From: an uncultured Mycobacterium sp.
GTDB lineage: Bacteria; Pseudomonadota; Gammaproteobacteria; UBA4575
Direction of reading: 5' to 3'
NCBI GenBank assembly: GCA_964196535.1
Contig: CAXMUG010000083.1
Coordinates: forward strand, 1-55,876
DNA length: 55,876 bases
Part shown: positions 23,868 through 42,839 of the stretch, piece after piece
Layout of the letters: the number at the start of each line of letters is the position of its first letter
Position numbering within the stretch: position 1 is the first letter of the stretch
Notes under the pieces: model-generated
Seen by the model: only the letters and a program-made list of their open reading frames with translations
Database searches by the model: none
Told to the model about the DNA's origin: nothing
Program-made: the position numbers and the translations under genes

Positions 23868-24110
23868 TTAGGCTCGCTTAATTATTTTCTTAAGAGCTTT
23901 TTGGTAAGCGAAATAAAATAACAAGACCCATGGCGAACCATGCAAAAAGAAATCGAACCAATCTACTGGTTGCATTCCTTCTGCGCCGGTGAAAATCCAT
24001 TTTAGTTTTCCCCAGATGTGGGGTTCGGGAGTGTAGGGCATAAGCCCCAGCGTTAAGGCAAGGATTAGCCAAAACACTGGGTTAAATATGAAGTTAGATT
24101 TCTTCTCCAC
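23868..24110 (-). CDS. Hypothetical small membrane protein (80 aa, 2 TM segments)
   Basis: Its GTG start overlaps the TAG stop of the upstream CSD gene by 1 nt (TAGTG), which suggests translational coupling. Confidence 0.55.
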   Translation of the reverse strand: MEKKSNFIFNPVFWLILALTLGLMPYTPEPHIWGKLKWIFTGAEGMQPVDWFDFFLHGSPWVLLFYFAYQKALKKIIKRA

Positions 24111-24535
24111 TATAGTGGACTAACATTTTCCGCTTGTAGGCCTTTGTCACCATCGACAATATCCATTAACACTTTTTGACCTTCGCGAAGTGATTTGCGA
24201 CCTGTTCCAATAATGGAACGGTGATGAACAAAAACATCTTCACCATTTTCTTGCTCGATAAAGCCAAAGCCTTTTTTGTAGTTAAACCATTTAACTGTGC
24301 CCGAAGTTTGATTTGAGCTTGGGCGAGCAGCAGTTGCTTTTGCTTTTCTTGGTCTGCTTGATACTTTTCTGGCTAGATTTTTGATTAAAGTTAAAACGAT
24401 CGCTAATGCTAATAAACCGCCAGCAATCTTAAGAGCGGTGTTGATAGGTTGAAAAGGCATATTTTCAGTAAACATGGTAAGGATGACGCCTAAAAGAATA
24501 CCTAGGCTAGTTAATATTTTTGAATCGATCTTCAT
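24110..24535 (-). CDS. Membrane-anchored cold-shock-domain protein
   Basis: The C-terminal CSD carries RNP1 (KGFGFI) and RNP2 (VFVHH). It is preceded by two TM segments and a basic linker ([19 protein letters not shown]). Confidence 0.85.
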
Positions 24536-26179: not shown

Positions 26180-26875
26180 ATGCGAAAAATACAGCTAATT
26201 AATGCTGGCATATGTATAGCAGTAATGCTTTTCATCAGTCCCATCAGCTTTGCAGGAGGAGAGACTATTAAATCTCCCATCCTAGATAGAGTTAAAGTGC
26301 TGCATAAGGTGCCTGAGAATTTAGACAGCCTAAGTCTGCAGCAGTTACATGCAGAGCGTGAAACTCGTCAGCGAGATCTTGAAGTAATTCGCCAAGCAAG
26401 TGATGAGCCCGAAGTGGCTAAGCAGCAGTTGTTGGAAGCTATTATGGCTCACGACGATGTACGCTTAAAAATCGCAGAAGTTATTCCTGTAATGGTTGAA
26501 GATTATAAAATAGAAGGAGAATTTCGTGATTCATTGATGGGGTATAGTAATACCTTTAACGTAGATATGCGTGAAGCACGCAAGGATGTGCATTCAATTA
26601 ACGATTATAAATCCTATGATTTTCGTTTTGCAGCGGTTTATATGTCTATGATGTTTAAATTTAATGAAAACCCCGAGTTTCATAAAAGATTAGTTTCAGA
26701 TATGCAGGATTCGGATACCGCTATTGGTAGTTATCGAAAAGAGTTAGATGAATCTTATGCCAAGGTTGAGCATGATAAGTATCTAATTCAAAATATTTAT
26801 TCTGTTAATGAATTGGAACAAGCAATTGCTGCGATTGATGAGGAAATTTCAAAGCGAAAACAAGCAGAATTATAA
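26180..26875 (+). CDS. Hypothetical secreted coiled-coil protein
   Basis: The 231-aa ORF has a signal peptide (AVMLFISPISFAGG) and charged helical sequence. I recognise no family. Confidence 0.55.
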   Translation: MRKIQLINAGICIAVMLFISPISFAGGETIKSPILDRVKVLHKVPENLDSLSLQQLHAERETRQRDLEVIRQASDEPEVAKQQLLEAIMAHDDVRLKIAEVIPVMVEDYKIEGEFRDSLMGYSNTFNVDMREARKDVHSINDYKSYDFRFAAVYMSMMFKFNENPEFHKRLVSDMQDSDTAIGSYRKELDESYAKVEHDKYLIQNIYSVNELEQAIAAIDEEISKRKQAEL

Positions 26876-26936
26876 AACTTAATATAATATTAAGATTAAG
26901 CAGTAGGCTTAATTTTTTTATACTGAGGTGTTGGGT

Positions 26937-27353
26937 ATGAATAAATTAAAGTATATATGTATATGGCCGATGTCATTAATAATGACATCGACTTTATTGT
27001 GTCTAAGCATTGCAGGAGCGGAAGAAACTTCTGAGGCACAACCTCCGCCTGAAATCGTTATCGATGCACCACCTCCTACTCAGTCACCTGTAAAGCTAGA
27101 TGCAGATGGATATGAAACCATTACTATCTACGAATCAAAAGTGTTGCCAGGTTTCCGTCCGTGTACAACTGAAGATTATCGAAACCGAGATACTGACCCA
27201 GTAGCATGTCAAGACGAAGAGGCTTCTCGTGTGATGTCTACACGCAATAAACAGGCTGTATCAGATGATCTAATTGTTGAAGATGATGCGGTACCGCAAG
27301 GAAATATTTTCAAATTAAAGTTTGAGCGTTTCAAGAAAAAGAAGACTAATTAA
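26937..27353 (+). CDS. Hypothetical secreted acidic protein
   Basis: I prefer the ATG at 26937 (MNKLKY...). The ORF has a signal peptide (LLCLSIAGAEE) and a Pro/acidic-rich mature part ending in KKKKTN. Confidence 0.5.
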   Translation: MNKLKYICIWPMSLIMTSTLLCLSIAGAEETSEAQPPPEIVIDAPPPTQSPVKLDADGYETITIYESKVLPGFRPCTTEDYRNRDTDPVACQDEEASRVMSTRNKQAVSDDLIVEDDAVPQGNIFKLKFERFKKKKTN

Positions 27354-30535: not shown

Positions 30536-31393
30536 TTAAGCCATGCCTTGGGCAATTTTGTATATCGCTTCTGCATCCAATGCAATATCGTTGGATTCAA
30601 ATAGTTTGGCAATGCATGCACGGTGCAGTTTTAGTTTTAGTGCGCCAATGCCGATGCCACCAAACACTCGCTTACCATAGCGTTCAGTGTCTTTATCCAT
30701 CACATCGATGCCTTCAAAACCTAGGATCTTAGATGTACCTACATCAGCAATGAGTTCTAAGGTGGGATGGTCTTGCCACTGTTTAGCATTGAGTAATTGT
30801 ATTCCCGCTTTTGCAGCACCAAACACTACATGGGCGCCATCCATTGCAGCTTGTATTGATTCATCATCACTGGCTTGCATAGGTGTCATTTCAACGCCAA
30901 AGCGCTCGTGCATTTCATCACAGGCTTCTACTGAGCGGGACTGCTTGCGGGAAGTAAGTCGAACATTCGCGCCACTAATGGCCAGTAGCACCGCTGCACG
31001 TTGTCCTACTGGGCCGGTGCCAGCAAGCACTACTGCAGTTTTACCTTGTATATTGGTCGCTTTGCTTAAGAGCGCAACGCCTGCCGCTGATGTGGTATTA
31101 CAACCATTGCTATCTAACATTATCGATACACGGAAGTTTTGAAAAAACTGATCGTGTACTAATTGAAAAAGTTTTTGACCTTCAATTAAATCACTGCCTC
31201 CAACAAAGATTGCAGTATTCTTTTTATATTTTGGAGCGCGCGTATAGACTGCACCTTCAACAAGGCCGCCACAATTTTCTTCATTGACGCCACCTAATTG
31301 AGTAACATGATCGGCGCCACCATCGTAGGCGACTACTGAATCAAATACGCTAGGTATAGCGTCGGTATCAAAATGGTATAAAAGTTTTTTCAT
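30536..31393 (-). CDS. mtdA: NADP-dependent methylene-tetrahydrofolate / methylene-tetrahydromethanopterin dehydrogenase
   Basis: The 285-aa ORF is near-colinear with MtdA of Methylobacterium as I recall it (FDTDAIPSVFDSVVAYDGGADH..., MLDSNGCNTTSAAGVAL, LKLKLHRACIAKLFES). Confidence 0.88.
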   Translation of the reverse strand: MKKLLYHFDTDAIPSVFDSVVAYDGGADHVTQLGGVNEENCGGLVEGAVYTRAPKYKKNTAIFVGGSDLIEGQKLFQLVHDQFFQNFRVSIMLDSNGCNTTSAAGVALLSKATNIQGKTAVVLAGTGPVGQRAAVLLAISGANVRLTSRKQSRSVEACDEMHERFGVEMTPMQASDDESIQAAMDGAHVVFGAAKAGIQLLNAKQWQDHPTLELIADVGTSKILGFEGIDVMDKDTERYGKRVFGGIGIGALKLKLHRACIAKLFESNDIALDAEAIYKIAQGMA

Positions 31394-31450: not shown

Positions 31451-34225
31451 TTACCCAGTACTGCCTATCCCCGCTGCTACGCAGTTAATGGATAATAATA
31501 ATGGAACTAATACGTCTTCTATGTTTTGGGTCTCATCGCCTTCACTACGAAACTTCTTCACTAGTTCTACCTGTTCAATGCCCACTTGGTTGAGTGCTTC
31601 GATGCGTCGATAGAAGTGGCGTTTATAATTAGGAAAACGATCACAAAGCTGATCTTCACCGGTAATTTTTAATATATTTTTCGTTGTCAGTTCATATTCT
31701 TCTTTAATATCAGAGAATATCTGAGTTCGATGTTCTTCGTTAGTAACTAGTTCGCAATACTTCTCAGCAACTTCCATGTCTACTAGCAAAAGTGTTTTTT
31801 CAGCACCGTCTAATATTAATCTAAACAGTGGGTGCTTCTCGTACATCTTGTTAAGAAGTTCTGTACCGAGTTCGCCACGTATTTTGATGATTTGTTCTAG
31901 GCTACTGCCTACTCCATACCAGCCTGGTACGAGAAGTCGATTCTGTGTCCATGCAAATACCCAAGGTATTGCGCGCAGATCATCTAGTGAAGCTGCACCA
32001 AAACGCCGTGCCGGTCTTGAGCCTATTTTCATAAGCGTAAGCTCTTCAACTGGACTGGCTTGCTGATAAAAGTCGACTAAACCTGGATGCTCGATTAATT
32101 TTCTGTAAGCGACATAGGCAGTTCCAGACAGTGCTTCAAGCGCTTCGTCTAATTCGGAATTGGTTTGGTAGGCTGGATCTTTGCCAGACATCAGTGAGTG
32201 AGTGATGACACTAGAGGCTAAAATTTCCATCTGTTCTTCAGCAAATCCACGGTTGGCGTATTTGTATGAAACCACTTCGCCTTGCTCAGTAACCCGCATA
32301 CGTCCATCAATGGTGCCAACCGGCTGTGCTGCTATAGCACGACCACTCGGTGCACCACCACGACTAACCGAGCCGCCACGACCATGGAAAAATGAAATCG
32401 GCACTTTATGTTTTTCGCCGGCTGCATGAATTTCTGATTGAGCCTTGCTGATGATCCAGTTAGAGGTGAGAAAGCCACCATCTTTGTTAGAATCTGAATA
32501 ACCCACCATGACTTCTTGGGAGCCACCGAATTTTTTAATTGTGCGTCGAACAAAGGCATGCTCTAAAAGCTCTGTTAAAACGCCTGGGCCGTTTTCAAGA
32601 TCATCAATGGTTTCTAGTAGTGGCACAATCATAATGCGACAAGCTTCTAGTCCATCAGAATCAGTAAATAGTCCTACATATTTCGCTAATAGATATACAC
32701 CCAAAACATCTGTGGCAGTTTTCGTCATACTCAATACGCATACGCCAAATGATTTTCGGTCTAGCTTGTTTTGGAAGTATTTAACTTGTTCGAGCATGGC
32801 TAAAGTAGACTGTGCTTGTTTAGATAAATTATCGAAACGAGGGACCACACGTAATGGTTGCGTTAATTGATCAACAATCCAGTTGTTCCATTCTTGAGAT
32901 GTAGGATCAGGCACATCTATATGAGTTTTTTGGTGCAATGCTTGCCATATCTCTGCTAGCACACTATTGACTACCGTAGTATTTTCGCGAATGTCTAGGC
33001 TGACCGTTCTAAAGCCAAAGGTATCCACCATGTGTCGCAATGGACGTACATCTGCATCGCTTAAGTGCCCACACTTAGCATCCGCCAAGCCTTGTTCAAG
33101 ATGACTGAGATCCGTAGATAAATCTGCTGCACGATGATAGGCAATTTTTGATTTACTTGGGTCATTAAGATTCCTTAAAGTCGCATCAATTCTGGTCAAC
33201 ATATAACGCAGGTATTGTCTAAACACTTCACCTGGATTACGTTGTGAATAGGCTTCTGTTTCGCCCAACATTTCTAGTTTGTCTTTTAATACTTTTGTAA
33301 AGCTTTCTGATACGTCTACAGAATGGTTCGCAATACTTAGTTTAGAACCAAGCTCAAAAATATCTTGTCGATAACGTTTTATGCATGCTTTGGCATTCGT
33401 TTGTATCGCGGATGCAGTAACTTTATGCGTGACATTTGGATTTCCGTCACGGTCTCCGCCAATCCATGACCCAAAGCGGAAAATAGGGGGCACTTTAAAT
33501 TCATAATGTGGGTAGGCTTGTTCTAATGCGCGATCCAGTTCTACATACAGTTCTTTTACACCATCAAATAATGATTCAACAAAAAAGTGCAATCCCCATG
33601 TTACTTCTTGTCCAACACTAGGTTTTTCTAAACGAATTTCACCCGTTAACCAAAGTAAATCAATTTCGTTGCGTAGTTCATTAGCTAAGTCATCTCTTTC
33701 TCTAGGGGTCCAGCGCTTTAGTTCTAACTGTTTAAGTAGTACATAGATTCGACGATGCACCTCTAATACGGTTACGCGTTTCGCTTCTGTTGGGTGTGCG
33801 GTGATTACAGGGCTGATTAAGCTGTTATCTAATAAGGTTTGTATATCTTCTGCAGAAATACCTTTTTGCTCAGCGCTTGAGAAGGAATATGCAAAAGTGC
33901 CAGGCACACGGTCACGATTATATTCTTTTTCAATTTGACGACGTTGCCGCACCATTGCATTTTGTTCTGCAATGCTTAATAGCTGGAACCATATTCCATA
34001 GGTTTGCAGGACATATAGAATTTTTGAGGCAGGGCAGTCGCGAATATCTTGCTTGCCGTTAAAATAAGCTTCGATATCTGGTTGACGCGCACGAATAACA
34101 CTTAGCAATTGTTGATAAAGCAGCTCTACTAATTCATCTTCATAGGATGCCGCAGGATTGATAATCATACTGCCGGTGGCAACTTTGGTAAGTTGTGTCC
34201 AGGAAAGTGGCGAGGTATCGGTCAT
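31451..34225 (-). CDS. ppc: Phosphoenolpyruvate carboxylase
   Basis: The 924-aa ORF has PEPC signatures (VITAHPTEAKR, VMVGYSDSNKDGG, FHGRGGSVSRGG) and a C-terminal ...GSTG. Confidence 0.95.
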   Translation of the reverse strand: MTDTSPLSWTQLTKVATGSMIINPAASYEDELVELLYQQLLSVIRARQPDIEAYFNGKQDIRDCPASKILYVLQTYGIWFQLLSIAEQNAMVRQRRQIEKEYNRDRVPGTFAYSFSSAEQKGISAEDIQTLLDNSLISPVITAHPTEAKRVTVLEVHRRIYVLLKQLELKRWTPRERDDLANELRNEIDLLWLTGEIRLEKPSVGQEVTWGLHFFVESLFDGVKELYVELDRALEQAYPHYEFKVPPIFRFGSWIGGDRDGNPNVTHKVTASAIQTNAKACIKRYRQDIFELGSKLSIANHSVDVSESFTKVLKDKLEMLGETEAYSQRNPGEVFRQYLRYMLTRIDATLRNLNDPSKSKIAYHRAADLSTDLSHLEQGLADAKCGHLSDADVRPLRHMVDTFGFRTVSLDIRENTTVVNSVLAEIWQALHQKTHIDVPDPTSQEWNNWIVDQLTQPLRVVPRFDNLSKQAQSTLAMLEQVKYFQNKLDRKSFGVCVLSMTKTATDVLGVYLLAKYVGLFTDSDGLEACRIMIVPLLETIDDLENGPGVLTELLEHAFVRRTIKKFGGSQEVMVGYSDSNKDGGFLTSNWIISKAQSEIHAAGEKHKVPISFFHGRGGSVSRGGAPSGRAIAAQPVGTIDGRMRVTEQGEVVSYKYANRGFAEEQMEILASSVITHSLMSGKDPAYQTNSELDEALEALSGTAYVAYRKLIEHPGLVDFYQQASPVEELTLMKIGSRPARRFGAASLDDLRAIPWVFAWTQNRLLVPGWYGVGSSLEQIIKIRGELGTELLNKMYEKHPLFRLILDGAEKTLLLVDMEVAEKYCELVTNEEHRTQIFSDIKEEYELTTKNILKITGEDQLCDRFPNYKRHFYRRIEALNQVGIEQVELVKKFRSEGDETQNIEDVLVPLLLSINCVAAGIGSTG

Positions 34226-34378: not shown

Positions 34379-35350
34379 CTAAACGAGCTTGTCTTTCGGA
34401 GTTTCGCCAGCTTCAAATGCTGCTAGATTCTCAAGAACTCGATTACCCATAGCCACACGTGTCTCGATAGAGGCGCTGCCAAGGTGAGGTAGTAGAACTG
34501 CATTCTCCAGCTCAAGGAAACGCTCATCTAATGCTGGTTCGCCTTCAAACACATCCAGACCAGCACCTGCAATCACGCCATTTTTAAGTGCGTCAATTAA
34601 TGCATCATTATCAACCACATCACCACGAGCTGAGTTTATTAAAAACGCAGAGGGCTTCATTTTCGCGAGACTTTCTTTATTTAATAAATGGTAAGTATCT
34701 TTGCCGCCTGGACAGTGAATAGAAACAAAGTCTGAGTTCGCTAAAACTTCATCAATGGAATCTACTTGCTGTGCATTGTATTTCTTGATCACGTCAGCCG
34801 GAGGCGGGTATGGATCAGAAAAGATGATTTTCATACCAAAACCATGATGCGCACGTTGTGCCATGGCTTGCGCAATACGGCCCATGCCGATTAAGCCTAA
34901 GGTCTTGCCAGTAACTTTAGAAGCTAGTAAGTGAGTAGGGCGCCAGCCGGCCCATGACTTTGAGCGTAGTTCTCTTTCACCTTCACTGGTGCGACGTGCA
35001 ACGGTTAACATTAATGTCATTGCGATGTCAGCTGTGCAATCAGTTAATACTTCTGGTGTGTTCGTTACCGTTAAGCCGCGTGCTTTAGCAGCATCTAAGT
35101 CAATGTGGTTAAAACCTACGCCAAAGTTACCAATGAATTTTGCACGTAATGGTTCTGCGCTTAATACTTCAGCATCGATTGGATCAGTTACAGTTGGCAA
35201 AAATGCATCACAGTTAGCCAATGCTTCTTTCATTTCGTCTTTGCTCATAGCCACGTCATTTTCATTCAACGTTACGTCATACTTTTCTCGCAACGTAGCT
35301 TGAACTTCTTCTGGCCAGGCGCGTGAAACGATTACTTTTAATTTGCTCAT
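34379..35350 (-). CDS. hprA: Hydroxypyruvate reductase / glycerate dehydrogenase (D-2-hydroxyacid dehydrogenase family)
   Basis: The 323-aa ORF has an NAD-binding motif (GLIGMGRIAQAM) and a catalytic R/E/H context (NSARGDVVD...PHLGSAS). It lies within the serine-cycle gene block. Confidence 0.82.
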   Translation of the reverse strand: MSKLKVIVSRAWPEEVQATLREKYDVTLNENDVAMSKDEMKEALANCDAFLPTVTDPIDAEVLSAEPLRAKFIGNFGVGFNHIDLDAAKARGLTVTNTPEVLTDCTADIAMTLMLTVARRTSEGERELRSKSWAGWRPTHLLASKVTGKTLGLIGMGRIAQAMAQRAHHGFGMKIIFSDPYPPPADVIKKYNAQQVDSIDEVLANSDFVSIHCPGGKDTYHLLNKESLAKMKPSAFLINSARGDVVDNDALIDALKNGVIAGAGLDVFEGEPALDERFLELENAVLLPHLGSASIETRVAMGNRVLENLAAFEAGETPKDKLV

Positions 35351-35375: not shown

Positions 35376-36266
35376 CTACGAGATGTCTTTCATTACTCTT
35401 TCCATCGTTGAGCCAAGCTCTGATGGATTCGGTGCAACAATGACACCTGCTTCTTCAAGCATTTGTACTTTTTCTGCAGCACTTTCACCAACACCAGAAA
35501 CAATCGCGCCTGCGTGACCCATGCGTCGACCTTTCGGTGCAGTTAGACCTGCAATGTAAGCAACTAATGGTTTAGTCATGTGCTTTTTAAAGAATTCAGC
35601 CGCTTCCGCTTCTTGCGGACCACCGATTTCACCAATCATCATCACTGCTTTGGTTTCAGGATCGGCTTCAAATAACTCTAAGATATCCTTATGAGAACTA
35701 CCGTTGATTGGGTCGCCACCAATGCCAATACTGGTGCTAATACCTATGCCTAATGCTTTCATTTGCGATGCAGCTTCATAGCCGAGTGTTCCTGAACGCG
35801 CTACTACACCAACGTTACCTTTCTGATAAATATGGCCAGGCATGATGCCTAGTAAGCATTTTTCAGGGCTGATGCTACCTGCACAGTTAGGGCCCGTTAG
35901 GCGCATACGGTCTTCTTTTTTGTAGCGATACATATAACGTTTAACACGCATCATGTCTTGCGCAGGAATTCCATCAGTGATGGAAACACAAGTTTTAATC
36001 CCTCCATCGGCAGCTTCCATAATTCCATCTGCAGCATAGGCACCTGGAACAAATACAATACTCGTTTCGGCACCGGTGCTTGCAACGGCATCTTTCACAG
36101 TATTAAACACAGGTAAACCCATGTGTGTTTGACCACCTTTACCTGGGGTAACACCACCAACCACTTTGGTACCGTACTCAATCATTTCTTCCGCGTGGAA
36201 AGTTCCGATTTTGCCGGTAAAGCCTTGAACAAGAACTTTAGTATTTTCATCAATCATTATTGTCAT
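35376..36266 (-). CDS. mtkB: Malate thiokinase (malate-CoA ligase) alpha/small subunit
   Basis: The ORF is SucD-like (VVARSGTLGYEA, phospho-His motif MGHAGAIVSG). I assign it to malate thiokinase because of its context next to mclA, sgaA and hprA. Confidence 0.82.
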   Translation of the reverse strand: MTIMIDENTKVLVQGFTGKIGTFHAEEMIEYGTKVVGGVTPGKGGQTHMGLPVFNTVKDAVASTGAETSIVFVPGAYAADGIMEAADGGIKTCVSITDGIPAQDMMRVKRYMYRYKKEDRMRLTGPNCAGSISPEKCLLGIMPGHIYQKGNVGVVARSGTLGYEAASQMKALGIGISTSIGIGGDPINGSSHKDILELFEADPETKAVMMIGEIGGPQEAEAAEFFKKHMTKPLVAYIAGLTAPKGRRMGHAGAIVSGVGESAAEKVQMLEEAGVIVAPNPSELGSTMERVMKDIS

Positions 36267-36277
36267 TTTATTTCTCC

Positions 36278-37453
36278 CTAACCTTTTGCAACACGGTTGC
36301 GTTCGGTCACTGCTTTTTCTGCAGCTTCGTCCAAGGTGTCTGCTGTAATGAGTGGTTGACCGCTGTCTTTTAGTATTTGCATACCTTTTTCAACATTGGT
36401 GCCGGATAGTCGTACGATAACCGGTACTTTTACGTCTAACTTTTCGAATGCATGAACAACACCTTCTGCAATCCAATCGCAACGGTTAATACCAGCAAAG
36501 ATATTAACTAATATGGCTTTTACCTTTTCATCATCAAGTACTAGCTTAAATGCACTCGTAACACGCTCTGGAGAAGCGCCACCACCGATATCTAAGAAGT
36601 TGGCAGGTTCGCCGCCCTTGTGTTTGATCATGTCCATGGTGGCCATAGCAAGGCCGGCACCATTAATCATGCAACCGATATCGCCATCTAAGCCTACATA
36701 GCTTAAGCCACGATCTGATGCTGAGGTTTCGCGTGGATCTTCTTGTGATTTATCACGAAGTTCTGCGATACGTGGACGACGGAATAGAGCGTTGTCATCA
36801 AAACCCATTTTGGCGTCAAGTGCCAGAACACGGTCATCTTTTGTGATAACCATTGGGTTGATTTCAACCATTGTGGCATCGTAATCACGAAATGCGCGGT
36901 AAGCGCCTTTGATTGTGTGAACAGCGTGGCTAATAAGCTCAGGTTTAATGCCTAATGCGAAAGCAAGCTCGCGAGCTTGGAAGTCACGTAAGCCTACTGC
37001 AGGTTCGACTTCTAATTTATGAATGGCTTCAGGTTTCGTTGCTGCAACTTCTTCGATATCCATGCCACCTTCGGTTGAGGTAACAAATACAACACGCTGC
37101 TTATCGCGATCTAGAACGAGTGCTAAGTAAAGCTCTTTTAAAATATCGGTAGCTTGTTCAACATAAAGTCGATATACCACTTTGCCTGCTGGCCCAGTTT
37201 GGTGAGTAACCAAGCGTTTGCCTAATAATTCGTCCGCAGCATTCCAAATTTCTTCATCATTGCTGCAAAGCTTAATGCCGCCCGCTTTACCGCGTGCGCC
37301 AGAATGAATTTGTGCTTTGATGGCCCATTTACTGCCACCAATTTCTTTTGCACGGTAAACAGCTTGCTCAGGACTATATGCTAGCCCACCCTCTGCAATG
37401 CCTACACCGCACTCGGATAATATTTCTTTCGCTTGATACTCATGGATATCCAC
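36278..37453 (-). CDS. mtkA: Malate thiokinase (malate-CoA ligase) beta/large subunit
   Basis: The ORF is a SucC-like ATP-grasp protein that strongly resembles MtkA as I recall it ([10 protein letters not shown]..., [37 protein letters not shown]). It uses a GTG start with GGGAGGG upstream. Confidence 0.85.
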
Positions 37454-37713: not shown

Positions 37714-38655
37714 TTAAGATTTCGCAGCAATTGCTTCAGCAGCTCGAACAACGTTCTCCGCCATTTTTGCAGAAGCCGCGTCGATCATCTTGCCATCCAA
37801 TGATGCAGCACCTTTGCCTTCTTTTGCAGCCTTGTCTAATTCTTCAAGGATACGGTGCGCTTTGGTTACTTCAGCTTCAGGTGGCGAGAAAACTTCGTTT
37901 GCCAACTCGATCTGGTTAGGGTGAATTGCCCATTTGCCTTCACAACCTAATGCAGCAGCACGGCGTGCACCGAGCAGGTAACCATCAGGATCACTGAAAT
38001 CACCAAATGGACCGTCGATAGGACGTAAGCCATAGGCGCGACAAGCAACCGTCATGCGTGAAATCGCAGCATGCCATTGATCACCCGGGTAATCAGGGTT
38101 TAAGCCACCGATGTTGGTAGTGCGTGCGCGATTACTCGCTGCATAATCCGCAACACCGAAGTGCATGGCTTCCATGCGTGGGCTTGAAGTAGCAATCGCT
38201 TCTACGTTTGCCATGCCCAATGCAGTTTCAATTAAAGCTTCAAGACCGATTTTATCTTCCAGTCCCATTGCTTCTTCGATTTGAGTAACCATGGCATCAA
38301 CCATATACACGTCACCCGTAGTTCCTACTTTAGGAATTAGTATGGTGTCTAGATTAGCGCCTGCTTGTTCGCAAACATCTACTACATCACGATACATGTA
38401 GTGAGTATCTAAACCGTTGATTCGAACCGATACGGTTTTACCGTTACCTTTCCAATCATGATTATTTAATGCTTCGATTACATTTTTGCGAGCTTGAACT
38501 TTGTCGTCAGGAGCTACGGCGTCTTCCAAGTCTAAAAATACATAGTCAGCCGCACAGGTTACGGCCTTTTCCATCATTTTAGGATTAGAACCAGGAACCG
38601 CTAGCTCACAACGTTGCACGCGTTGGCGTGCAGGTTTGTATAGAGTAAAACTCAT
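37714..38655 (-). CDS. mclA: Malyl-CoA lyase (HpcH/HpaI/CitE-like)
   Basis: The 313-aa ORF has an N-terminus (MSFTL...CELAVPGSNPKMMEKA...FLDLEDAVAPDDK) that matches Mcl as I recall it. It starts 12 nt downstream of sgaA. Confidence 0.88.
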   Translation of the reverse strand: MSFTLYKPARQRVQRCELAVPGSNPKMMEKAVTCAADYVFLDLEDAVAPDDKVQARKNVIEALNNHDWKGNGKTVSVRINGLDTHYMYRDVVDVCEQAGANLDTILIPKVGTTGDVYMVDAMVTQIEEAMGLEDKIGLEALIETALGMANVEAIATSSPRMEAMHFGVADYAASNRARTTNIGGLNPDYPGDQWHAAISRMTVACRAYGLRPIDGPFGDFSDPDGYLLGARRAAALGCEGKWAIHPNQIELANEVFSPPEAEVTKAHRILEELDKAAKEGKGAASLDGKMIDAASAKMAENVVRAAEAIAAKS

Positions 38656-38667
38656 AGTGTGTACCTT

Positions 38668-39930
38668 CTATTTTTTAGCTTTTCTTTTAGCTGGTGCTTT
38701 TTTCTTAGGAGCCGCTTTTGGTGCCGCGAACTTTTTGATTTTCTTACCGGTCTTGCGGTAGTACTCACCAGCAGCTGCAACGCCGCTTCCTGGCTTGATC
38801 TTGATGCCAGCATCAAGAAGGGCCATTTCTACAGTGCCTAAAGCTGCCATCATGCGCGCTTCGTTGTTGTCGCCGAGGTGACCGATACGGAAAACCTTGC
38901 CCGCAACTTTAGATAAGCCGGCACCTAGTGAGATGTTGTATTTATGGTATGCAATATGAATTACTTCATTCGCATTTTTGTTTTCAGGAACTAAGATTGC
39001 AGTAACGGTATCTGAGTTCCATTTTGCTGAAGTTGCACAAGTCTTTAAACCCCAGGCTTTAACGGCAAGACGTACACCTTCTGCTAAACGATGATGACGT
39101 TTAAAGGTATTTTCTAAACCTTCGCCTAAAATCAAATCAATCGCTGCACGTAGTCCGCGCAACATAGGAACAGACGGGGTGTAAGGGAAGAAACCATCTT
39201 TGTTGGTATTCATGTGGTCTTGAATATCTAGGAAACAGCGAGCACATTTTGCAGTTTTACGTTTTGCTAATGCACGTGGGCTGAATGCTAAAATAGCCAT
39301 GCCTGCTGGTAACATAAAGCCTTTTTGCGAACCACTTACCGCAATATCAACGCCCCATTTGTCCATTTGGAAATCGATGCTGGCTACAGAACTTACGCAG
39401 TCCACCATTAATAAAGCAGGGTGCTTAATTTGCTTTAGCATTTTGCCAACAGCACCAATATCACTGGTTACGCCTGTAGCAGTTTCGTTATGGCAACAAA
39501 CAACGGCTTTAATTTCGTGTTTCTTGTCAGCAAGAAGAATTTTCTTAAACTTCTCAACTGGAACGCCTTCGCCCCATGGAGTTTCTATTAGGTCTACTTC
39601 TAGGCCAATACGGCAAGCAAGGTCATACCATAAATGACTGAACTGACCAAAACGTGTAGTTAAGATTTTGTCACCTGGCGACATGGTGTTTGCTAAGGCA
39701 ACTTCCCAACCAGCTGTACCGGTTGCAGGGAATAAAAAGCATGTGCCTTTTGTAGTTTTGAAAATCTTTTTAACGTCTCGCAATAAAGGTTTAACGAGTT
39801 CAGGAAAGTCTGGTGCACGGTGATCTTCTTGAGGACAGATCATTGCATTTTGAACTTCTTGAGGAATGTGTGTAGGACCGGGGCAGAATAAATAATTTCT
39901 TCCAGGATAAGACAGTTTTTGTCCAGGCAT
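38668..39930 (-). CDS. sgaA: Serine-glyoxylate aminotransferase (class V) with a Lys/Ala/Pro-rich C-terminal tail
   Basis: The 420-aa ORF has the PLP-lysine context SGSQKGFMLPAG. It lies in the serine-cycle block and ends in KKFAAPKAAPKKKAPAKRKAKK. Confidence 0.88.
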   Translation of the reverse strand: MPGQKLSYPGRNYLFCPGPTHIPQEVQNAMICPQEDHRAPDFPELVKPLLRDVKKIFKTTKGTCFLFPATGTAGWEVALANTMSPGDKILTTRFGQFSHLWYDLACRIGLEVDLIETPWGEGVPVEKFKKILLADKKHEIKAVVCCHNETATGVTSDIGAVGKMLKQIKHPALLMVDCVSSVASIDFQMDKWGVDIAVSGSQKGFMLPAGMAILAFSPRALAKRKTAKCARCFLDIQDHMNTNKDGFFPYTPSVPMLRGLRAAIDLILGEGLENTFKRHHRLAEGVRLAVKAWGLKTCATSAKWNSDTVTAILVPENKNANEVIHIAYHKYNISLGAGLSKVAGKVFRIGHLGDNNEARMMAALGTVEMALLDAGIKIKPGSGVAAAGEYYRKTGKKIKKFAAPKAAPKKKAPAKRKAKK

Positions 39931-40172: not shown

Positions 40173-41051
40173 TTATAAGGCGTTTTGTAATTTGGCCGCA
40201 TACAAAGTGTTTTCTAGTAAACAGGCTACCGTCATGGGTCCTGTGCCCCCCGGCATAGGTGTGATAGCGCCTGCGATTGATTGCACGGCTTCAAAATCTA
40301 CATCACCTCGAATACCCTCATCGGTTCGAGTGACTCCTACATCAATTACTGCAGCCCCTGGTTTGATGTGTTCTTGTTTAACAAGATGTGCAATGCCCGC
40401 TGCGGCAACTACAATGTCAGCAGATTTGGTAAATGCACCGATATCACCACTGCGTGAATGGGCTAAAGTTACAGTGGCATCAGTGCCTTTGCGCCCTAGT
40501 AACAAAACTTGCGGAAGCCCCACTAAAGTGGAACGCCCAATAACTACTGCACGTTTGCCACTGGTTTCTATCTCGTAGTGCTCGAGTATGCGCATCACAC
40601 CTAGAGGCGTGCAGGGTACTAATCCAGGTACGCCGCGCATAAGTTTGCCTAGATTATTTTCACTTAAACCATCGACATCTTTTTCAGGCGGCAATAAATC
40701 GATAATTTTATGTGTGTCGAGTTGTTTTGGTAATGGCAACTGAATCAATATTCCATGCACGCTAGGATCATTAGCAAGCTTAGTTATTTCTTCACAGGCT
40801 TGTGACATGGATATATTACTAGCGAGTTCAACATGCTTGGATTGAATACCAATGGTGGCTGCACGTTTTTCTTTCATGCTCACATAGAGTTTGCTAGCGG
40901 GGTCGTTCCCTATAAGCACAGTGGCAAGAGTTACTTTTGCGTTAGGAGATTGTGCTAGCTGCTTGGCTATTTTACTTTGAACTGCTTCGGCAACCACATT
41001 TCCATTCATTAGGATTGCGCCGCCAGGAGTTTTGTTAAATTCTGTTGTCAT
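40173..41051 (-). CDS. folD: Bifunctional methylene-THF dehydrogenase / methenyl-THF cyclohydrolase
   Basis: The 292-aa ORF has FolD signatures (ASKLYVSMKEK, HGILIQLPLP, CTPLGVM, VVIGRSTLVG, PMPGGTGPMTVA). Confidence 0.95.
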   Translation of the reverse strand: MTTEFNKTPGGAILMNGNVVAEAVQSKIAKQLAQSPNAKVTLATVLIGNDPASKLYVSMKEKRAATIGIQSKHVELASNISMSQACEEITKLANDPSVHGILIQLPLPKQLDTHKIIDLLPPEKDVDGLSENNLGKLMRGVPGLVPCTPLGVMRILEHYEIETSGKRAVVIGRSTLVGLPQVLLLGRKGTDATVTLAHSRSGDIGAFTKSADIVVAAAGIAHLVKQEHIKPGAAVIDVGVTRTDEGIRGDVDFEAVQSIAGAITPMPGGTGPMTVACLLENTLYAAKLQNAL

Positions 41052-41111
41052 TAGAATATTATGCTTTAGAACTAGCGCTTAGGATAGGTGGTTACCTAAA
41101 TCAGATTACGC

Positions 41112-41146
41112 AAAAAAAAGCCGCTATTAAGTAGCGGCTATTTTTA
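41112..41146 (-). terminator. Strong Rho-independent terminator after the Ftr-like gene
   Basis: The minus-strand RNA reads AGCCGCUA-CUUAA-UAGCGGCU followed by a run of 8 U. The plus strand is also flanked by a T-run, so the terminator may work in both directions. Confidence 0.82.
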
Positions 41147-41164: not shown

Positions 41165-42088
41165 TTATTCAGCAGGCTGTTTGCTTGGATCTAGGTAGAT
41201 AAAGCTCTTACCTAGCTTTCCATTGTAGTTACCTGCAGAAATCATAATCAGTCCTGGTGTGTCTACCGAAGCTTTGATTGCGGCTTGCGTCGCATCAATA
41301 ATCGGCTGCATGCCTTGACCATTCATGATGATTTCCATCACACAGTTAACGCCTTCCGGCAATCCTGCTTCAACCGTAGGATCATCTTGTAACATTGGGC
41401 AGAATTTTTCGTAAGTGCTGGCAATGGTGAAGTCATAGCTACTTCCAGCTTTTGAGCCACTGCCTGCAATACCGCCCGGGAAGGTTGAGATCACACCCGG
41501 CATTGGGAGGATCGCTTCCACGCCTTTTTCTGCAGCAAGGAGTGCGGAATCCACACTGTCACCAAAGAACCAAAGGTTGCCACCCATAAGCCCATCTGCA
41601 TATCCAAGACGACGATCTAAAATGAATTCTCCACCTAAGATTGGAATCCACCACATTTTGCGACCAAAACGCTCGATGCGTTTTTGGTAGCCGTTACCGA
41701 AGTAAGCGACTTTACGACCCATGTGGTAATACTCTTCTGAATCAACTAGGTTGAAACATGAAGCGGTAGGGCAAGTCATAACGTTTTGACTGATACGCAC
41801 TAATGCAGATCTTTCTAACGCTTCTACACGATCTTTGCGAAAGCGTGGAATGTGAAGTTGCACGATAGCGCCTGGGCGACCATCTGGAGTTTCAAAACTT
41901 TCGTCACCACCTGGACCGACATAACGATCCATCCCAGCTTCACAATCACACAAGATTGAACTTGATGCGTTACCCGTTGCAGCGTTAACCGCGTGGTCTA
42001 ACCATTTACGGTCACGTGCAGTGATTAAAAATTCTGTGTAGAGGCTTTTAAACGCTTCTGCGTAAGTATCATCAATTTTTGCAGCCAT
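41165..42088 (-). CDS. Formylmethanofuran:tetrahydromethanopterin formyltransferase-like protein (Ftr/FhcD family), stand-alone
   Basis: The 307-aa ORF aligns by eye along its whole length with Ftr (DDTYAEAF..., ETPDGRPG, GNGYQ...GRKMWWIPILGGEFI, GGNLWFFG, FPGGIAGSGSKAGS, GNYNGKLG). No fhcA, fhcB or fhcC is adjacent. Confidence 0.85.
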   Translation of the reverse strand: MAAKIDDTYAEAFKSLYTEFLITARDRKWLDHAVNAATGNASSSILCDCEAGMDRYVGPGGDESFETPDGRPGAIVQLHIPRFRKDRVEALERSALVRISQNVMTCPTASCFNLVDSEEYYHMGRKVAYFGNGYQKRIERFGRKMWWIPILGGEFILDRRLGYADGLMGGNLWFFGDSVDSALLAAEKGVEAILPMPGVISTFPGGIAGSGSKAGSSYDFTIASTYEKFCPMLQDDPTVEAGLPEGVNCVMEIIMNGQGMQPIIDATQAAIKASVDTPGLIMISAGNYNGKLGKSFIYLDPSKQPAE

Positions 42089-42091
42089 CTT

Positions 42092-42730
42092 TTATCCTCG
42101 ACCGATGCCTTCGTACACAGCATCTTCAGTAACGACTTTGTCCATAAATACATCATGTGGAGCAACAAGTATTTCATCAAATATTTGTGACTCATAGCAT
42201 AATGCTACAAGTGGGCAATCAGCGCGAAGTTGCTCAAGTAGACGGTCATAGTAACCTTGTCCATTACCCATGCGACCACCCTTCTTATCGAAGCCTGTAC
42301 CAGGAACCATGATGATGTCGATTTCTTCAGGAGTCACCTCTTTTTCTGGGTTGCCCCATAATTCTTTAGGTGGTTCTAGGATGTCCCATTTGCCAACAAC
42401 CATTTCTTCTAAGCTTTCCATCCACCAAAGGCCAAGCTTGTTATCGCCATTTTCGTCTTCAGTGCAATAAGGAACGATAATTTTCTTTTCGCCCTTGTTA
42501 ACTTCTGCAATTAATTCATCTTTTGTGCGAGTCTCAGAGCGGCAATCGATATACCACATTGCAACATTGGATTTTTGGTACTCAGAGAGAGCCATAAAAT
42601 TTGCACAAGCTTTTGCACTAACTTCTTCTTTGTTTTCTTGAGCAGCACGACGGTCGTATGCTTCACGACGCATTTTGTTTTTGCGCTCCATTACTTTTTC
42701 TAGTTCTTCGGGGGATAATAATGTCGCCAT
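42092..42730 (-). CDS. 5-formyltetrahydrofolate cyclo-ligase family protein
   Basis: The 212-aa ORF has the characteristic C-terminal half (WDILEP...IDIIMVPGTGFDKKGGRMGNGQGYYDRLL). Its stop lies 3 nt from the Ftr-like start. Confidence 0.85.
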   Translation of the reverse strand: MATLLSPEELEKVMERKNKMRREAYDRRAAQENKEEVSAKACANFMALSEYQKSNVAMWYIDCRSETRTKDELIAEVNKGEKKIIVPYCTEDENGDNKLGLWWMESLEEMVVGKWDILEPPKELWGNPEKEVTPEEIDIIMVPGTGFDKKGGRMGNGQGYYDRLLEQLRADCPLVALCYESQIFDEILVAPHDVFMDKVVTEDAVYEGIGRG

Positions 42731-42839
42731 CGACAGCTCCTTAAAGTTTTAGTGGTAAGACTAAAATGGTAATAATCAGAACGGGCAATCCTATCTACTT
42801 ATTCCACCCCTGACAATTTATGCTTTATAGATACTTAGT

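What the first reader, a model, noticed from the sequence alone, without database searches (positions are those of the whole stretch)
41165..42730. Translationally coupled 5-formyl-THF cyclo-ligase plus orphan Ftr/FhcD-like formyltransferase at the head of the serine-cycle genes: possible H4MPT/MFR-to-THF formyl shunt
**What is seen.**
- A full-length Ftr-family protein occurs without fhcA, fhcB or fhcC, the partners it has in bacterial methylotrophs, and without mch, mtdB or fae nearby.
- Its start lies 3 nt after the stop of a 5-formyl-THF cyclo-ligase homolog.
- The pair ends at a strong terminator (41112-41146).
- folD, sgaA-mclA, mtkAB-hprA and ppc-mtdA follow on the same strand.

**Established chemistry.**
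- Ftr transfers a formyl group from formyl-methanofuran to N5 of the pterin.
- N5-formyl-THF can re-enter metabolism only through ATP-dependent 5-FCL, which produces 5,10-methenyl-THF.
- Methenyl-THF is the substrate of FolD or MtdA on the way to methylene-THF and the serine cycle.

**Inference (untested).** The pair may move formyl units from formyl-MFR to 5-formyl-THF and then to methenyl-THF. No ftfL or fch is present in the window, so this would provide an alternative to formate-THF ligase plus Fch.
Basis: inference. Interest (0 to 1): 0.62.

Follow-up and report, generated by a model that had tools for sequence, protein, structure and literature searches.

The report
Conserved cyclo-ligase and formyltransferase gene pair
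A formyltransferase normally tied to methanogen-type cofactors is always encoded right behind a folate-repair-type ATP enzyme in many marine bacterial species, which suggests an undescribed way of feeding one-carbon units into folate metabolism, though its substrates are untested.

Summary
On the minus strand a 212-aa 5-formyl-THF cyclo-ligase homolog (42730..42092) ends 3 nt before a 307-aa Ftr/FhcD-family protein (42088..41165). An intrinsic terminator follows. folD and the serine-cycle genes lie downstream. The window holds no fae, mch, mtdB, fhcABC, ftfL or fch.

The pairing is not chance. The cyclo-ligase sits directly upstream of the formyltransferase in 77/77 species genomes and 19/19 metagenome contigs where upstream DNA exists. 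Spacing is -4 to +20 nt, genome GC runs from 30 to 66%, and some contexts are planctomycete-like with no other C1 gene. folD follows in 59/77.

The formyltransferase belongs to its own clade: 36-40% identical to proteobacterial FhcD, 43-45% to archaeal Ftr, and sister to orphan planctomycete copies. The catalytic Glu is kept. In one relative the pair lies beside an H4MPT island, where related islands carry fhcCDAB.

Best reading (about 0.4): the pair makes N5-formyl-THF and cyclises it with ATP to methenyl-THF for FolD/MtdA. The formyl donor is unknown, pterin specificity is untested, and no whole-genome inventory was possible. No paper found describes the pairing. Verdict: new variant of a known kind.

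The parts
42737..42742 (-). AAGGAG ribosome-binding site 6 nt upstream of the cyclo-ligase start codon
   Evidence: Read directly from the sequence. The promoter-like hexamers at 42816..42788 are no better than chance.
42092..42730 (-). 5-formyl-THF cyclo-ligase (MTHFS/YgfA-family) homolog, 212 aa
   Evidence: PF01812 1-186/186, 1.6e-36. TIGR02727 126.5 bits against a cutoff of 84.9. 72 bits to Aquifex MTHFS 1SOU. The PG..FD..G.R.G.G.GYYDR and EP motifs are invariant in 97 pair-linked copies.
42086..42099 (-). Translational-coupling junction: GAGGA inside the end of the cyclo-ligase gene, TAA stop, 3-nt spacer, ATG of the formyltransferase
   Evidence: In 77 related genomes the stop-to-start spacing is -4 to +20 nt, and 68/77 are 6 nt or less.
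41165..42088 (-). Ftr/FhcD-family formyltransferase of a distinct, cyclo-ligase-linked clade, 307 aa
   Evidence: PF01913 plus PF02741, NF002554 310 bits, TIGR03119 292.9 against 292.6. 229 bits to archaeal Ftr structures against 167 to M. extorquens FhcD. Separate clade in the tree. The catalytic Glu is kept in CVMEIIMNG. A 160-nt metatranscriptome contig lies at 41551-41710.
41111..41139 (-). Intrinsic terminator after the pair
   Evidence: Stem of 8 pairs plus T8. -15.7 kcal/mol, z = -2.9. In many relatives the gap to folD is only about 20-60 nt, so there the pair is probably co-transcribed with folD.
40173..41051 (-). folD, bifunctional methylene-THF dehydrogenase / methenyl-THF cyclohydrolase
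   Evidence: PF00763 plus PF02882. Directly downstream of the pair in 59/77 genomes.
38668..39930 (-). sgaA-type class V aminotransferase (serine-glyoxylate / aspartate-glyoxylate type)
   Evidence: PF00266. Best NCBIfam match is BhcA at 580 bits, below its 650 cutoff.
37714..38655 (-). mclA, malyl-CoA lyase-type HpcH/CitE protein
   Evidence: PF03328.
35376..37453 (-). mtkA and mtkB, malate-CoA ligase subunits
   Evidence: NF010647 697 bits against a cutoff of 604 for the beta subunit. CoA-ligase alpha-subunit domains for mtkB.
34379..35350 (-). hprA-type 2-hydroxyacid dehydrogenase
   Evidence: PF02826 and PF00389.
31451..34225 (-). ppc, PEP carboxylase
   Evidence: PF00311, 5e-240.
30536..31393 (-). 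mtdA, NADP-dependent methylene-H4MPT / methylene-THF dehydrogenase ortholog
   Evidence: PF09176. 316 bits to M. extorquens MtdA structures 1LU9 and 6TGE across the full length.

Best explanation
The two genes form one dedicated module that brings a formyl group into the folate pool.

**Proposed steps**

1. The Ftr-like enzyme transfers a formyl group from a carrier to N5 of tetrahydrofolate, giving 5-formyl-THF. The carrier is formyl-methanofuran or methylofuran where that cofactor exists, and otherwise an unidentified N-formyl donor.
2. The co-translated cyclo-ligase spends one ATP to close 5-formyl-THF to 5,10-methenyl-THF. 5-formyl-THF is otherwise a dead-end metabolite that inhibits SHMT.
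3. FolD or MtdA, encoded next door, reduce methenyl-THF to methylene-THF for the serine cycle. FolD can instead open it to 10-formyl-THF.

The net chemistry and ATP cost equal formate-THF ligase plus Fch, but without free formate.

**Shown**
- The two family memberships.
- The invariant, tightly spaced pairing and the co-divergence of the two genes.
- The preferred neighbourhood: folD, serine-cycle genes, mtdA.
- The separate clade of the formyltransferase.
- Its position in place of fhcCDAB in one relative.

**Inferred**
- THF as the acceptor.
- The identity of the donor.
- The direction of flux.
For: **1. The pairing is obligatory.**
- The cyclo-ligase is immediately upstream on the same strand in 77/77 GTDB species genomes.
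- The same holds in 19/19 metagenome contigs with upstream DNA.
- Spacing is -4 to +20 nt, and locus GC ranges from 0.30 to 0.66.

**2. The pair travels alone.** On contigs L077, L080, L082, L120 and L123 the neighbours are sulfatase, S46 peptidase, WD40 and T2SS genes. No other C1 gene is present.

**3. The two genes co-diverge.** Pairwise identities correlate at r = 0.81 over 4560 pairs.

**4. The next gene is a THF enzyme.** folD is directly downstream in 59/77 loci. Serine-cycle genes follow in 54/69. H4MPT genes are nearby in only 1 of about 100 loci.

**5. The cyclo-ligase looks like a true 5-FCL.** It scores above the TIGR02727 equivalog cutoff and keeps the GYYDR and EP motifs.

**6. 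The formyltransferase is not the canonical FhcD.**
- It is 36-40% identical to FhcD encoded inside fhcCDAB.
- It forms a separate long-stem clade.

**7. It sits where fhcCDAB usually is.** In genome CP070821.1 the pair plus folD, hprA and an aminotransferase-like gene lie next to mptG-mtdB-orf5-mch-mptN-citG-fae. Seven islands in other bacteria carry fhcCDAB at that position.

**8. H4MPT genes were not found alongside the pair elsewhere.** Searches seeded with that genome's Mch and beta-RFAP synthase listed 240 relatives. None lies on any of about 25 other contigs over 1 Mb that carry the pair.

**9. Established knowledge that fits the model.**
- Ftr chemistry formylates N5 of a pterin.
- 5-FCL is the dedicated route from 5-formyl-THF back into metabolism.
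- MtdA is a precedent for an H4MPT-family enzyme that also accepts THF.
Against: - No enzyme of the Ftr family is known to use THF. Archaeal Ftr and FhcD were reported as H4MPT-specific (own knowledge).
- Only four positions that are near-invariant in the family differ in this clade: R22E, M148L, E155D and N224Y in M. kandleri numbering. All four are shared with the orphan planctomycete sisters that lack the cyclo-ligase. No sequence signature therefore separates 'paired' from 'unpaired' enzymes.
- If methanofuran is absent from most of these genomes, the formyl donor is unknown.
- The negative evidence for H4MPT genes is weak:
  - each search lists only the best 120 hits;
  - cluster representatives can hide members on chromosomes, as happened with the Mch of CP070821.1;
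  - planctomycete-type H4MPT genes would not have been found with the proteobacterial queries.
- No full genome could be inventoried.
- The terminator between the pair and folD in this window shows that co-transcription with folD is not universal.
Confidence: 0.4

Rival explanations
1. **Ordinary FhcD with a co-regulated housekeeping or repair enzyme.** The Ftr-like protein works with H4MPT and methylofuran as usual, with fhcABC and the H4MPT genes elsewhere in the genome. The cyclo-ligase is the cell's normal 5-FCL. It is placed there because serine-cycle cells with high SHMT flux must clear 5-formyl-THF, or because the formyltransferase makes some 5-formyl-THF as a side product.
For: - The protein passes the curated Ftr/FhcD cutoffs and keeps the catalytic Glu and most family motifs.
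- Its closest sisters are orphan planctomycete copies, in a phylum known for scattered H4MPT genes (own knowledge).
- One relative has Mch, MtdB, Fae and H4MPT-synthesis genes next to the pair.
- 5-FCL beside folD makes sense as folate housekeeping.
Against: - Housekeeping co-location does not explain a 96/96 pairing with overlapping or near-overlapping stop and start codons.
- It does not explain why the pairing persists where folD and all other C1 genes are absent.
- Canonical FhcD is always inside fhcCDAB in the seven islands seen, and none of about 100 pair loci has fhcA, fhcB or fhcC nearby.
- H4MPT signature genes were not seen on other large pair-bearing contigs.
Confidence: 0.2
2. **Both enzymes act on H4MPT.** Ftr makes N5-formyl-H4MPT from formyl-methanofuran. 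The cyclo-ligase homolog is an ATP-driven substitute for Mch that forces it to methenyl-H4MPT. The dual-specificity MtdA then handles that product.
For: - This is the simplest chemistry for an unchanged Ftr active site.
- The cyclo-ligase reaction concerns only the N5/N10 part that both pterins share (own knowledge).
- A true MtdA ortholog, active on both pterins in M. extorquens, lies in the same cluster.
- Mch is absent from 100 of 101 pair loci.
Against: - The one genome with H4MPT genes next to the pair has a normal mch, so an ATP-driven cyclo-ligase there would create a futile cycle.
- The preferred neighbour is folD, a THF enzyme.
- The cyclo-ligase scores as a 5-FCL equivalog.
- Beta-RFAP synthase, the signature of H4MPT synthesis, was not found on other pair-bearing chromosomes.
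- Bacterial SHMT needs methylene-THF, so the product would still have to cross to folate (own knowledge).
Confidence: 0.15
3. **Substrates outside the known pair of cofactors.** The Ftr-like protein moves a formyl or related acyl group between molecules that are neither methanofuran nor a C1 pterin. The 5-FCL-family protein does a different ATP-dependent step on that product. Other 5-FCL paralogs are suspected to have non-folate roles.
For: - The clade is long-stemmed and sharply separated: the only full-length representative in the clade is 67% identical, and the next is 44%.
- Two charge- or size-changing substitutions occur at positions conserved in the rest of the family, R22E and N224Y.
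- No cofactor biosynthesis genes are seen nearby.
Against: - Both proteins keep their families' catalytic motifs.
- The neighbourhood is consistently folate and serine-cycle.
Confidence: 0.1

Closest known systems
FhcD, the formyltransferase subunit of the bacterial formyltransferase/hydrolase complex FhcABCD (M. extorquens, PDB 6S6Y)
   Same: - Same two-lobe Ftr fold family (PF01913 plus PF02741).
- Same catalytic Glu (E252 in FhcD).
- Found in bacteria that carry serine-cycle genes.
   Different: - Only 37% identical (167 bits).
- Not encoded with fhcA, fhcB or fhcC in any of about 100 loci.
- Always preceded by a cyclo-ligase gene instead.
- Belongs to a separate clade.
Archaeal stand-alone Ftr (M. 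kandleri 1FTR/2FHJ, M. barkeri 1M5H, A. fulgidus 1M5S)
   Same: - A stand-alone gene, not part of a complex operon.
- Higher similarity than to FhcD: 43-45% identity, about 229 bits.
- Motifs ETPDGRPG, FPGGI..SGSK, EI..NG and AGNY.GKLG are kept.
   Different: - Found in aerobic marine bacteria with no methanogenesis context.
- Carries two small insertions (GGDES, and around PRFRKDR).
- Differs at R22E and N224Y.
- Partnered with a 5-FCL, which archaeal Ftr is not known to be.
5-formyl-THF cyclo-ligase / MTHFS (E. coli YgfA, A. aeolicus 1SOU, human 3HXT)
   Same: - Full-length PF01812 domain.
- Scores above the TIGR02727 cutoff.
- The ATP and folate motifs (GxGxGYYDR, EP, N-terminal K/R) are invariant.
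   Different: Housekeeping 5-FCL genes are not known to be translationally coupled to a formyltransferase. Here the coupling is invariant, and the two genes co-diverge (r = 0.81).
Formate-THF ligase (FtfL) plus methenyl-THF cyclohydrolase (Fch), the entry to the serine cycle in M. extorquens
   Same: - The pair occupies the same logical position, ahead of mtdA and the serine-cycle genes.
- Under the proposed model the net reaction and ATP cost are the same.
   Different: - The enzyme families are different.
- The proposed route passes through N5-formyl rather than N10-formyl and needs no free formate.
- ftfL and fch are absent from the window, but their absence from the genome was not tested.
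Formimidoyltransferase-cyclodeaminase (FTCD) logic
   Same: Same two-step logic: transfer a one-carbon group to N5 of THF, then cyclise it to 5,10-methenyl-THF. FTCD's transferase also has glutamate formyltransferase activity that makes 5-formyl-THF (own knowledge).
   Different: The proteins are unrelated at sequence level. FTCD's cyclisation releases ammonia and uses no ATP. This is a resemblance in logic only and was not tested here.

Membership tests
Ftr/FhcD formyltransferase family | Two-lobe architecture (FTR plus FTR_C) over the full length | tested here: met
   PF01913 residues 4-150 and PF02741 residues 153-299.
Ftr/FhcD formyltransferase family | Score above the curated family cutoffs | tested here: met
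   NF002554 310.2 against 297. TIGR03119 (fhcD equivalog) 292.9 against 292.6, a marginal pass.
Ftr/FhcD formyltransferase family | Catalytic glutamate (E245 in M. kandleri, E252 in M. extorquens) | tested here: met
   Aligned Glu in CVMEIIMNG, invariant in 99 clade members.
Ftr/FhcD formyltransferase family | Formyl transfer between methanofuran/methylofuran and H4MPT | not testable with these tools
   Needs an enzyme assay.
Bacterial Fhc complex (FhcABCD) | Encoded with fhcA (amidohydrolase), fhcB and fhcC (GXGXG) | tested here: not met
   None in the 55.9-kb window. None in about 100 related loci of up to 21 kb. All seven canonical islands inspected have fhcC-fhcD-fhcA-fhcB. Presence elsewhere in the genome was not testable.
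Bacterial Fhc complex (FhcABCD) | Orthology with proteobacterial FhcD | tested here: not met
   36-40% identity to FhcD from fhcCDAB operons. Separate clade in the tree.
H4MPT-linked formaldehyde oxidation module | Co-occurrence with fae, mtdB, mch and H4MPT/MFR biosynthesis genes | tested here: inconclusive
   Absent from the window. Adjacent in 1 relative, CP070821.1. Mch and beta-RFAP synthase relatives were not found on about 25 other pair-bearing contigs over 1 Mb, but the listings are capped at 120.
5-formyl-THF cyclo-ligase (MTHFS) family | Full-length PF01812 domain and score above the equivalog cutoff | tested here: met
   PF01812 1-186/186. TIGR02727 126.5 against 84.9.
5-formyl-THF cyclo-ligase (MTHFS) family | Conserved nucleotide/folate motifs (GxGxGYYDR, EP, N-terminal basic residues) | tested here: met
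   Present and invariant in 97 pair-linked sequences. Aligned to 1SOU and 1YDM.
5-formyl-THF cyclo-ligase (MTHFS) family | ATP-dependent conversion of 5-formyl-THF to 5,10-methenyl-THF | not testable with these tools
   Needs an enzyme assay, including 5-formyl-H4MPT as an alternative substrate.
Serine-cycle gene cluster | sgaA, hprA, mtkAB, mclA, ppc and mtdA together | tested here: met
   The cluster is conserved in 54/69 relatives.
FtfL/Fch entry route | Formate-THF ligase and Fch genes present | tested here: not met
   No FTHFS or Fch domain in any window ORF of 150 aa or more. The rest of the genome was not tested.

The most novel reading that the evidence does not exclude
The paired clade is a tetrahydrofolate-directed member of the Ftr family. 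Together with its dedicated cyclo-ligase it would form a previously unrecognised, formate-free, ATP-driven entry of formyl groups into the folate pool.

The formyl groups would come from methylofuran/H4MPT where those cofactors exist, or from a still unknown formyl donor where they do not.

The module would replace Fhc plus FtfL/Fch in many marine species (405 genome hits in the search): sponge symbionts, sediment and pelagic Gammaproteobacteria, and some Planctomycetes.
Probability: 0.3. Interest if true: 0.85.

Novelty: new variant of a known kind. Interest (0 to 1): 0.66.

Why it matters
**New biochemistry.** Ftr/FhcD enzymes are textbook markers of methanopterin/methanofuran C1 metabolism, and genome annotators read them that way. 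A clade that is locked to a folate cyclo-ligase, and usually to folD and the serine cycle, would be something new. It would be either the first direct enzymatic bridge between the two C1 cofactor systems or a folate-specific Ftr.

**Pathway predictions.** Either outcome changes how C1 assimilation is predicted in abundant uncultured marine bacteria. These include Ca. Porisulfidus, Oxydemutatoraceae-type sponge symbionts and sediment Gammaproteobacteria.

**Annotation.** Automatic 'H4MPT pathway present' calls based on this gene would be misleading.

**Testability.** Two small soluble proteins and a spectrophotometric read-out of methenyl-THF are enough to test the idea.

Tried and rejected
1. 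**Contig length as a genome fingerprint.** I looked for Mch or beta-RFAP synthase on the chromosomes that carry the pair. No match appeared except the seed genome. The method is weak: listings stop at 120 hits, and cluster representatives can hide chromosomal members. One apparent match, two contigs both 41,762 bp long, was a coincidence. The contigs differ in sequence and in GC (0.57 against 0.67).
2. **H4MPT island from the same sample series.** Contigs L096 and L097 carry such an island but have 58% GC and a tetranucleotide correlation of about -0.25 with the window. They belong to another organism.
3. **Is the unannotated 408-aa gene beside the island in CP070821.1 an FhcB?** No similarity was found. 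It is weakly aminotransferase-like.
4. **Is the gene upstream of the orphan planctomycete Ftr a diverged cyclo-ligase?** No.
5. **A 410-aa 'fusion' of cyclo-ligase and Ftr (P0350).** It is a multiply frameshifted read-through, not a real fusion.
6. **Riboswitch or other known RNA upstream of the pair or folD.** None was found.
7. **Protein accession proximity** to place pair genes and H4MPT genes in one MAG. No pairs were found.
8. **Literature.** Eight successful searches found no paper linking 5-FCL with Ftr/FhcD. The genome papers read for related lineages found none of the C1 terms searched (serine, methanopterin, formyl, formate, methanol; one lone figure-legend 'tetrahydrofolate').
10. 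**Expression.** Only one metatranscriptome held fragments, 160 nt in the Ftr-like gene and 242 nt in sgaA. That is too little to define transcripts.
Full report
**1. What is in the window**

On the minus strand an ORF of 212 aa (42730..42092) ends in TAA. Three bases later an ORF of 307 aa begins (42088..41165). A GAGGA motif lies inside the last codons of the first gene and serves the second, and an AAGGAG precedes the first.

The first protein is a full-length member of the 5-formyl-THF cyclo-ligase family:
- PF01812, 1.6e-36
- TIGR02727, 126.5 bits against a cutoff of 84.9

The second has both lobes of the Ftr family (PF01913 plus PF02741). It passes NF002554 (310 against 297) but reaches the fhcD equivalog TIGR03119 only by a hair (292.9 against 292.6).

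A clean intrinsic terminator follows at 41139..41119: an 8-bp stem, T8 tail, -15.7 kcal/mol, z = -2.9.

Downstream on the same strand lie folD, sgaA, mclA, mtkA, mtkB, hprA, ppc and a true mtdA ortholog. The mtdA product scores 316 bits to M. extorquens MtdA.

Pfam scans of every other ORF of 150 aa or more found cell-wall, lipoate, efflux, ABC-transport and GlnE genes. They found no Fae, Mch, MtdB, FhcA/B/C, FtfL or Fch. No Rfam family and no tRNA occurs in the window.

**2. Where it comes from**

Identical copies of the Ftr-like protein lie on marine-sediment metagenome contigs and in one MAG, GCA_964196315.1.

In a collection of one genome per species, 405 stretches encode a relative. The best 80 are uncultured marine Gammaproteobacteria, labelled variously:
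- Thiotrichales
- Chromatiales
- Ca. Porisulfidus (a sponge sulfur oxidiser)
- Ca. Oxydemutatoraceae
- a few contigs binned as Planctomycetes

Many are complete chromosomes of 1.6-2.9 Mb. Locus GC across GTDB and metagenome loci runs from 0.30 to 0.66.

**3. The pairing is a rule, not an accident**

- In the 80 species loci, the cyclo-ligase is directly upstream on the same strand in all 77 cases with at least 700 nt of upstream DNA.
- The stop-to-start distance is -4 to +20 nt, and 6 nt or less in 68 of 77.
- A scan of JGI metagenomes seeded with a relative's protein gave 21 more loci. All 19 with upstream DNA show the same pair. They include distant ones: Ftr-like 63% and cyclo-ligase 48% identical to the window's.
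- folD follows directly in 59/77 loci. sgaA and the serine-cycle genes follow in 54/69.
- The pair persists where folD is missing (L026-L037) and where the serine-cycle genes are missing (L060-L067 and others).
- It also persists on contigs where nothing else is shared:
  - L077, L080 and L082 have sulfatase, S46 peptidase and other typically planctomycete neighbours.
  - L120 and L123 have WD40 and type II secretion genes.
- Pairwise identities of the two proteins across 96 loci correlate at r = 0.81.
- Both are conserved well above their neighbours. Median identity to the window is 87% for the Ftr-like protein and 81% for the cyclo-ligase. It is 57% for FolD and 74% for Ppc.

The two genes behave as one inherited, occasionally transferred, two-gene module.

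**4. What kind of Ftr it is**

Against solved structures, it is closer to archaeal stand-alone Ftr (about 229 bits, 43-45% identity) than to FhcD of the M. extorquens Fhc complex (167 bits, 37%).

A search of 1.84 billion 50%-identity representatives found 979 family members. Only one full-length representative falls in this clade (67% identity), and the next is at 44%. That 67% representative stands for marine Planctomycetota proteins. In those genomes the gene is an orphan, with no cyclo-ligase and no fhc genes within 10 kb.

In a neighbour-joining tree the paired sequences and these orphans form one long-stemmed, internally tight clade. It stands apart from both archaeal Ftr and proteobacterial FhcD.

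The catalytic glutamate named for Ftr (E245) and FhcD (E252) is conserved, as are most family motifs.

Only four positions that are at least 80% conserved in the rest of the family differ throughout the clade: R22E, M148L, E155D and N224Y in M. kandleri numbering. All four are shared with the orphan planctomycete sisters. By sequence the enzyme is thus a catalytically intact Ftr of a planctomycete-type lineage. Nothing in the alignment by itself says 'THF' or 'H4MPT'.

**5. Relation to the methanopterin pathway**

One relative, CP070821.1 (loci L057 and L101), is informative. Its pair plus folD lies a few kb from mptG (beta-RFAP synthase), mtdB, an ATP-grasp gene, mch, mptN, citG, fae and further H4MPT-synthesis genes. 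Only hprA and an aminotransferase-like gene lie between.

I inspected seven H4MPT islands in other bacteria, found through that genome's Mch and beta-RFAP synthase. Every one has fhcC-fhcD-fhcA-fhcB, or the part the contig reaches, divergently abutting mptG. Their FhcD is 36-40% identical to the window's protein. In CP070821.1 the pair therefore occupies the place where the Fhc genes normally are.

None of the other roughly 100 pair loci has an H4MPT gene within reach.

About 25 further contigs over 1 Mb carry the pair and are present in the protein collection. None of the 240 best Mch and beta-RFAP synthase relatives lies on any of them. The seed chromosome itself was recovered.

This is only weak evidence of absence, for three reasons:
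- Listings are capped at 120 hits.
- Cluster representatives can mask members.
- Planctomycete-type genes would escape proteobacterial queries.

An H4MPT island from the same sample series as the window belongs to a 58% GC organism, not to this 41% GC one.

**6. Most likely mechanism**

Three things are established:
- Ftr chemistry puts a formyl group on N5 of a reduced pterin.
- 5-FCL chemistry takes an N5-formyl pterin to the N5,N10-methenyl form with ATP.
- FolD and MtdA use methenyl-THF.

An enzyme that made 5-formyl-THF as its main product would need a dedicated 5-FCL, because 5-formyl-THF is otherwise a dead end and an SHMT inhibitor. That requirement explains an exceptionless, translationally coupled pairing better than shared regulation does.

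If the product were 5-formyl-H4MPT, Mch would be the expected partner. Mch is not the partner in 100 of 101 loci. The one genome that has Mch would also run a futile cycle.

I therefore rank the readings as follows:
- A folate-directed formyl-entry module, about 0.4. The donor would be methanofuran/methylofuran-bound formyl where that cofactor exists, as in CP070821.1, where the module would replace Fhc plus FtfL. Elsewhere the donor is unknown.
- An ordinary FhcD with a co-located housekeeping or repair 5-FCL, 0.2.
- An all-H4MPT route with an ATP-driven Mch substitute, 0.15.
- Wholly different substrates, 0.1.

The acceptor, the donor and the direction are all inferences.

**7. Comparison with what is known, and novelty**

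Both proteins are members of known families, and the membership tests on sequence features were met. The Ftr-like protein fails the two features that define a bacterial FhcD: an operon with fhcABC, and orthology.

Within the library searched, the eight successful searches found no paper connecting 5-FCL with Ftr/FhcD. The genome papers I read for related lineages found none of the C1 terms searched (serine, methanopterin, formyl, formate, methanol; one lone figure-legend 'tetrahydrofolate'). NCBI and JGI simply name the protein formylmethanofuran--tetrahydromethanopterin N-formyltransferase.

I classify the finding as a new variant of a known kind: a distinct subfamily with a new obligate partner and genomic role.

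**8. Limits**

- No complete genome could be inventoried.
- Substrate specificity cannot be computed.
- RNA evidence is limited to two short contigs in one metatranscriptome, at 41551-41710 and 39466-39707.
- The tree is a distance tree on 47 sequences.

Noticed in passing
window 38671-38750 (C-terminus of sgaA, minus strand): The aminotransferase ends in a highly basic Ala/Lys/Pro-rich tail, ...KKFAAPKAAPKKKAPAKRKAKK, which resembles histone-H1-like tails. tblastn matches in relatives stop about 25 residues short of the C-terminus, so the tail may be lineage-specific.
   Followed up: no
L057 / L101 (CP070821.1, about 2,025,000-2,046,000): A single C1 'super-island': folD, the Ftr-like gene and the cyclo-ligase lie divergent from hprA, an aminotransferase-like 408-aa gene, mptG, mtdB, orf5, mch, mptN, citG, fae and further H4MPT-synthesis genes. 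No fhcCDAB is present at its usual position.
   Followed up: partly
L089-L092 (marine Planctomycetota contigs): The closest sisters of the paired clade (65-68% identity) are orphan Ftr genes. They have neither a cyclo-ligase nor fhc genes within 10 kb, yet they share the clade's four unusual substitutions.
   Followed up: partly
L009-L088, L105-L125: The Ftr-like protein stays 73-99% identical in all but two of these loci (63% and 70% in L123 and L125), while genome GC runs from 0.30 to 0.66. FolD next door drops to about 50%. Either constraint is unusually strong or the module has spread recently by transfer.
   Followed up: partly
window 24110-24535 (minus strand): A 141-aa protein with an N-terminal membrane segment, a basic linker and a C-terminal cold-shock domain ([16 protein letters not shown]). 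This would be a membrane-anchored CSD protein.
   Followed up: no
window 26180-26875 (plus strand): A 231-aa secreted-looking protein with no Pfam match at 1e-8. The 141-aa signal-peptide-like ORF next to it (26928-27353) was not scanned.
   Followed up: no
L105 1680-3386: In the closest metagenome relative of L057, a fused NuoE/NuoF-like protein lies beside mtkAB-like genes upstream of the pair. Its domains are 2Fe-2S thioredoxin-like, 51K FMN and 4Fe-4S, as in the diaphorase part of NAD-linked formate dehydrogenases.
   Followed up: no
L105 against L126 (method): Two unrelated JGI contigs have exactly the same length, 41,762 bp. Contig length used as a fingerprint across tool outputs therefore gives false positives and must be checked on sequence.
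   Followed up: yes
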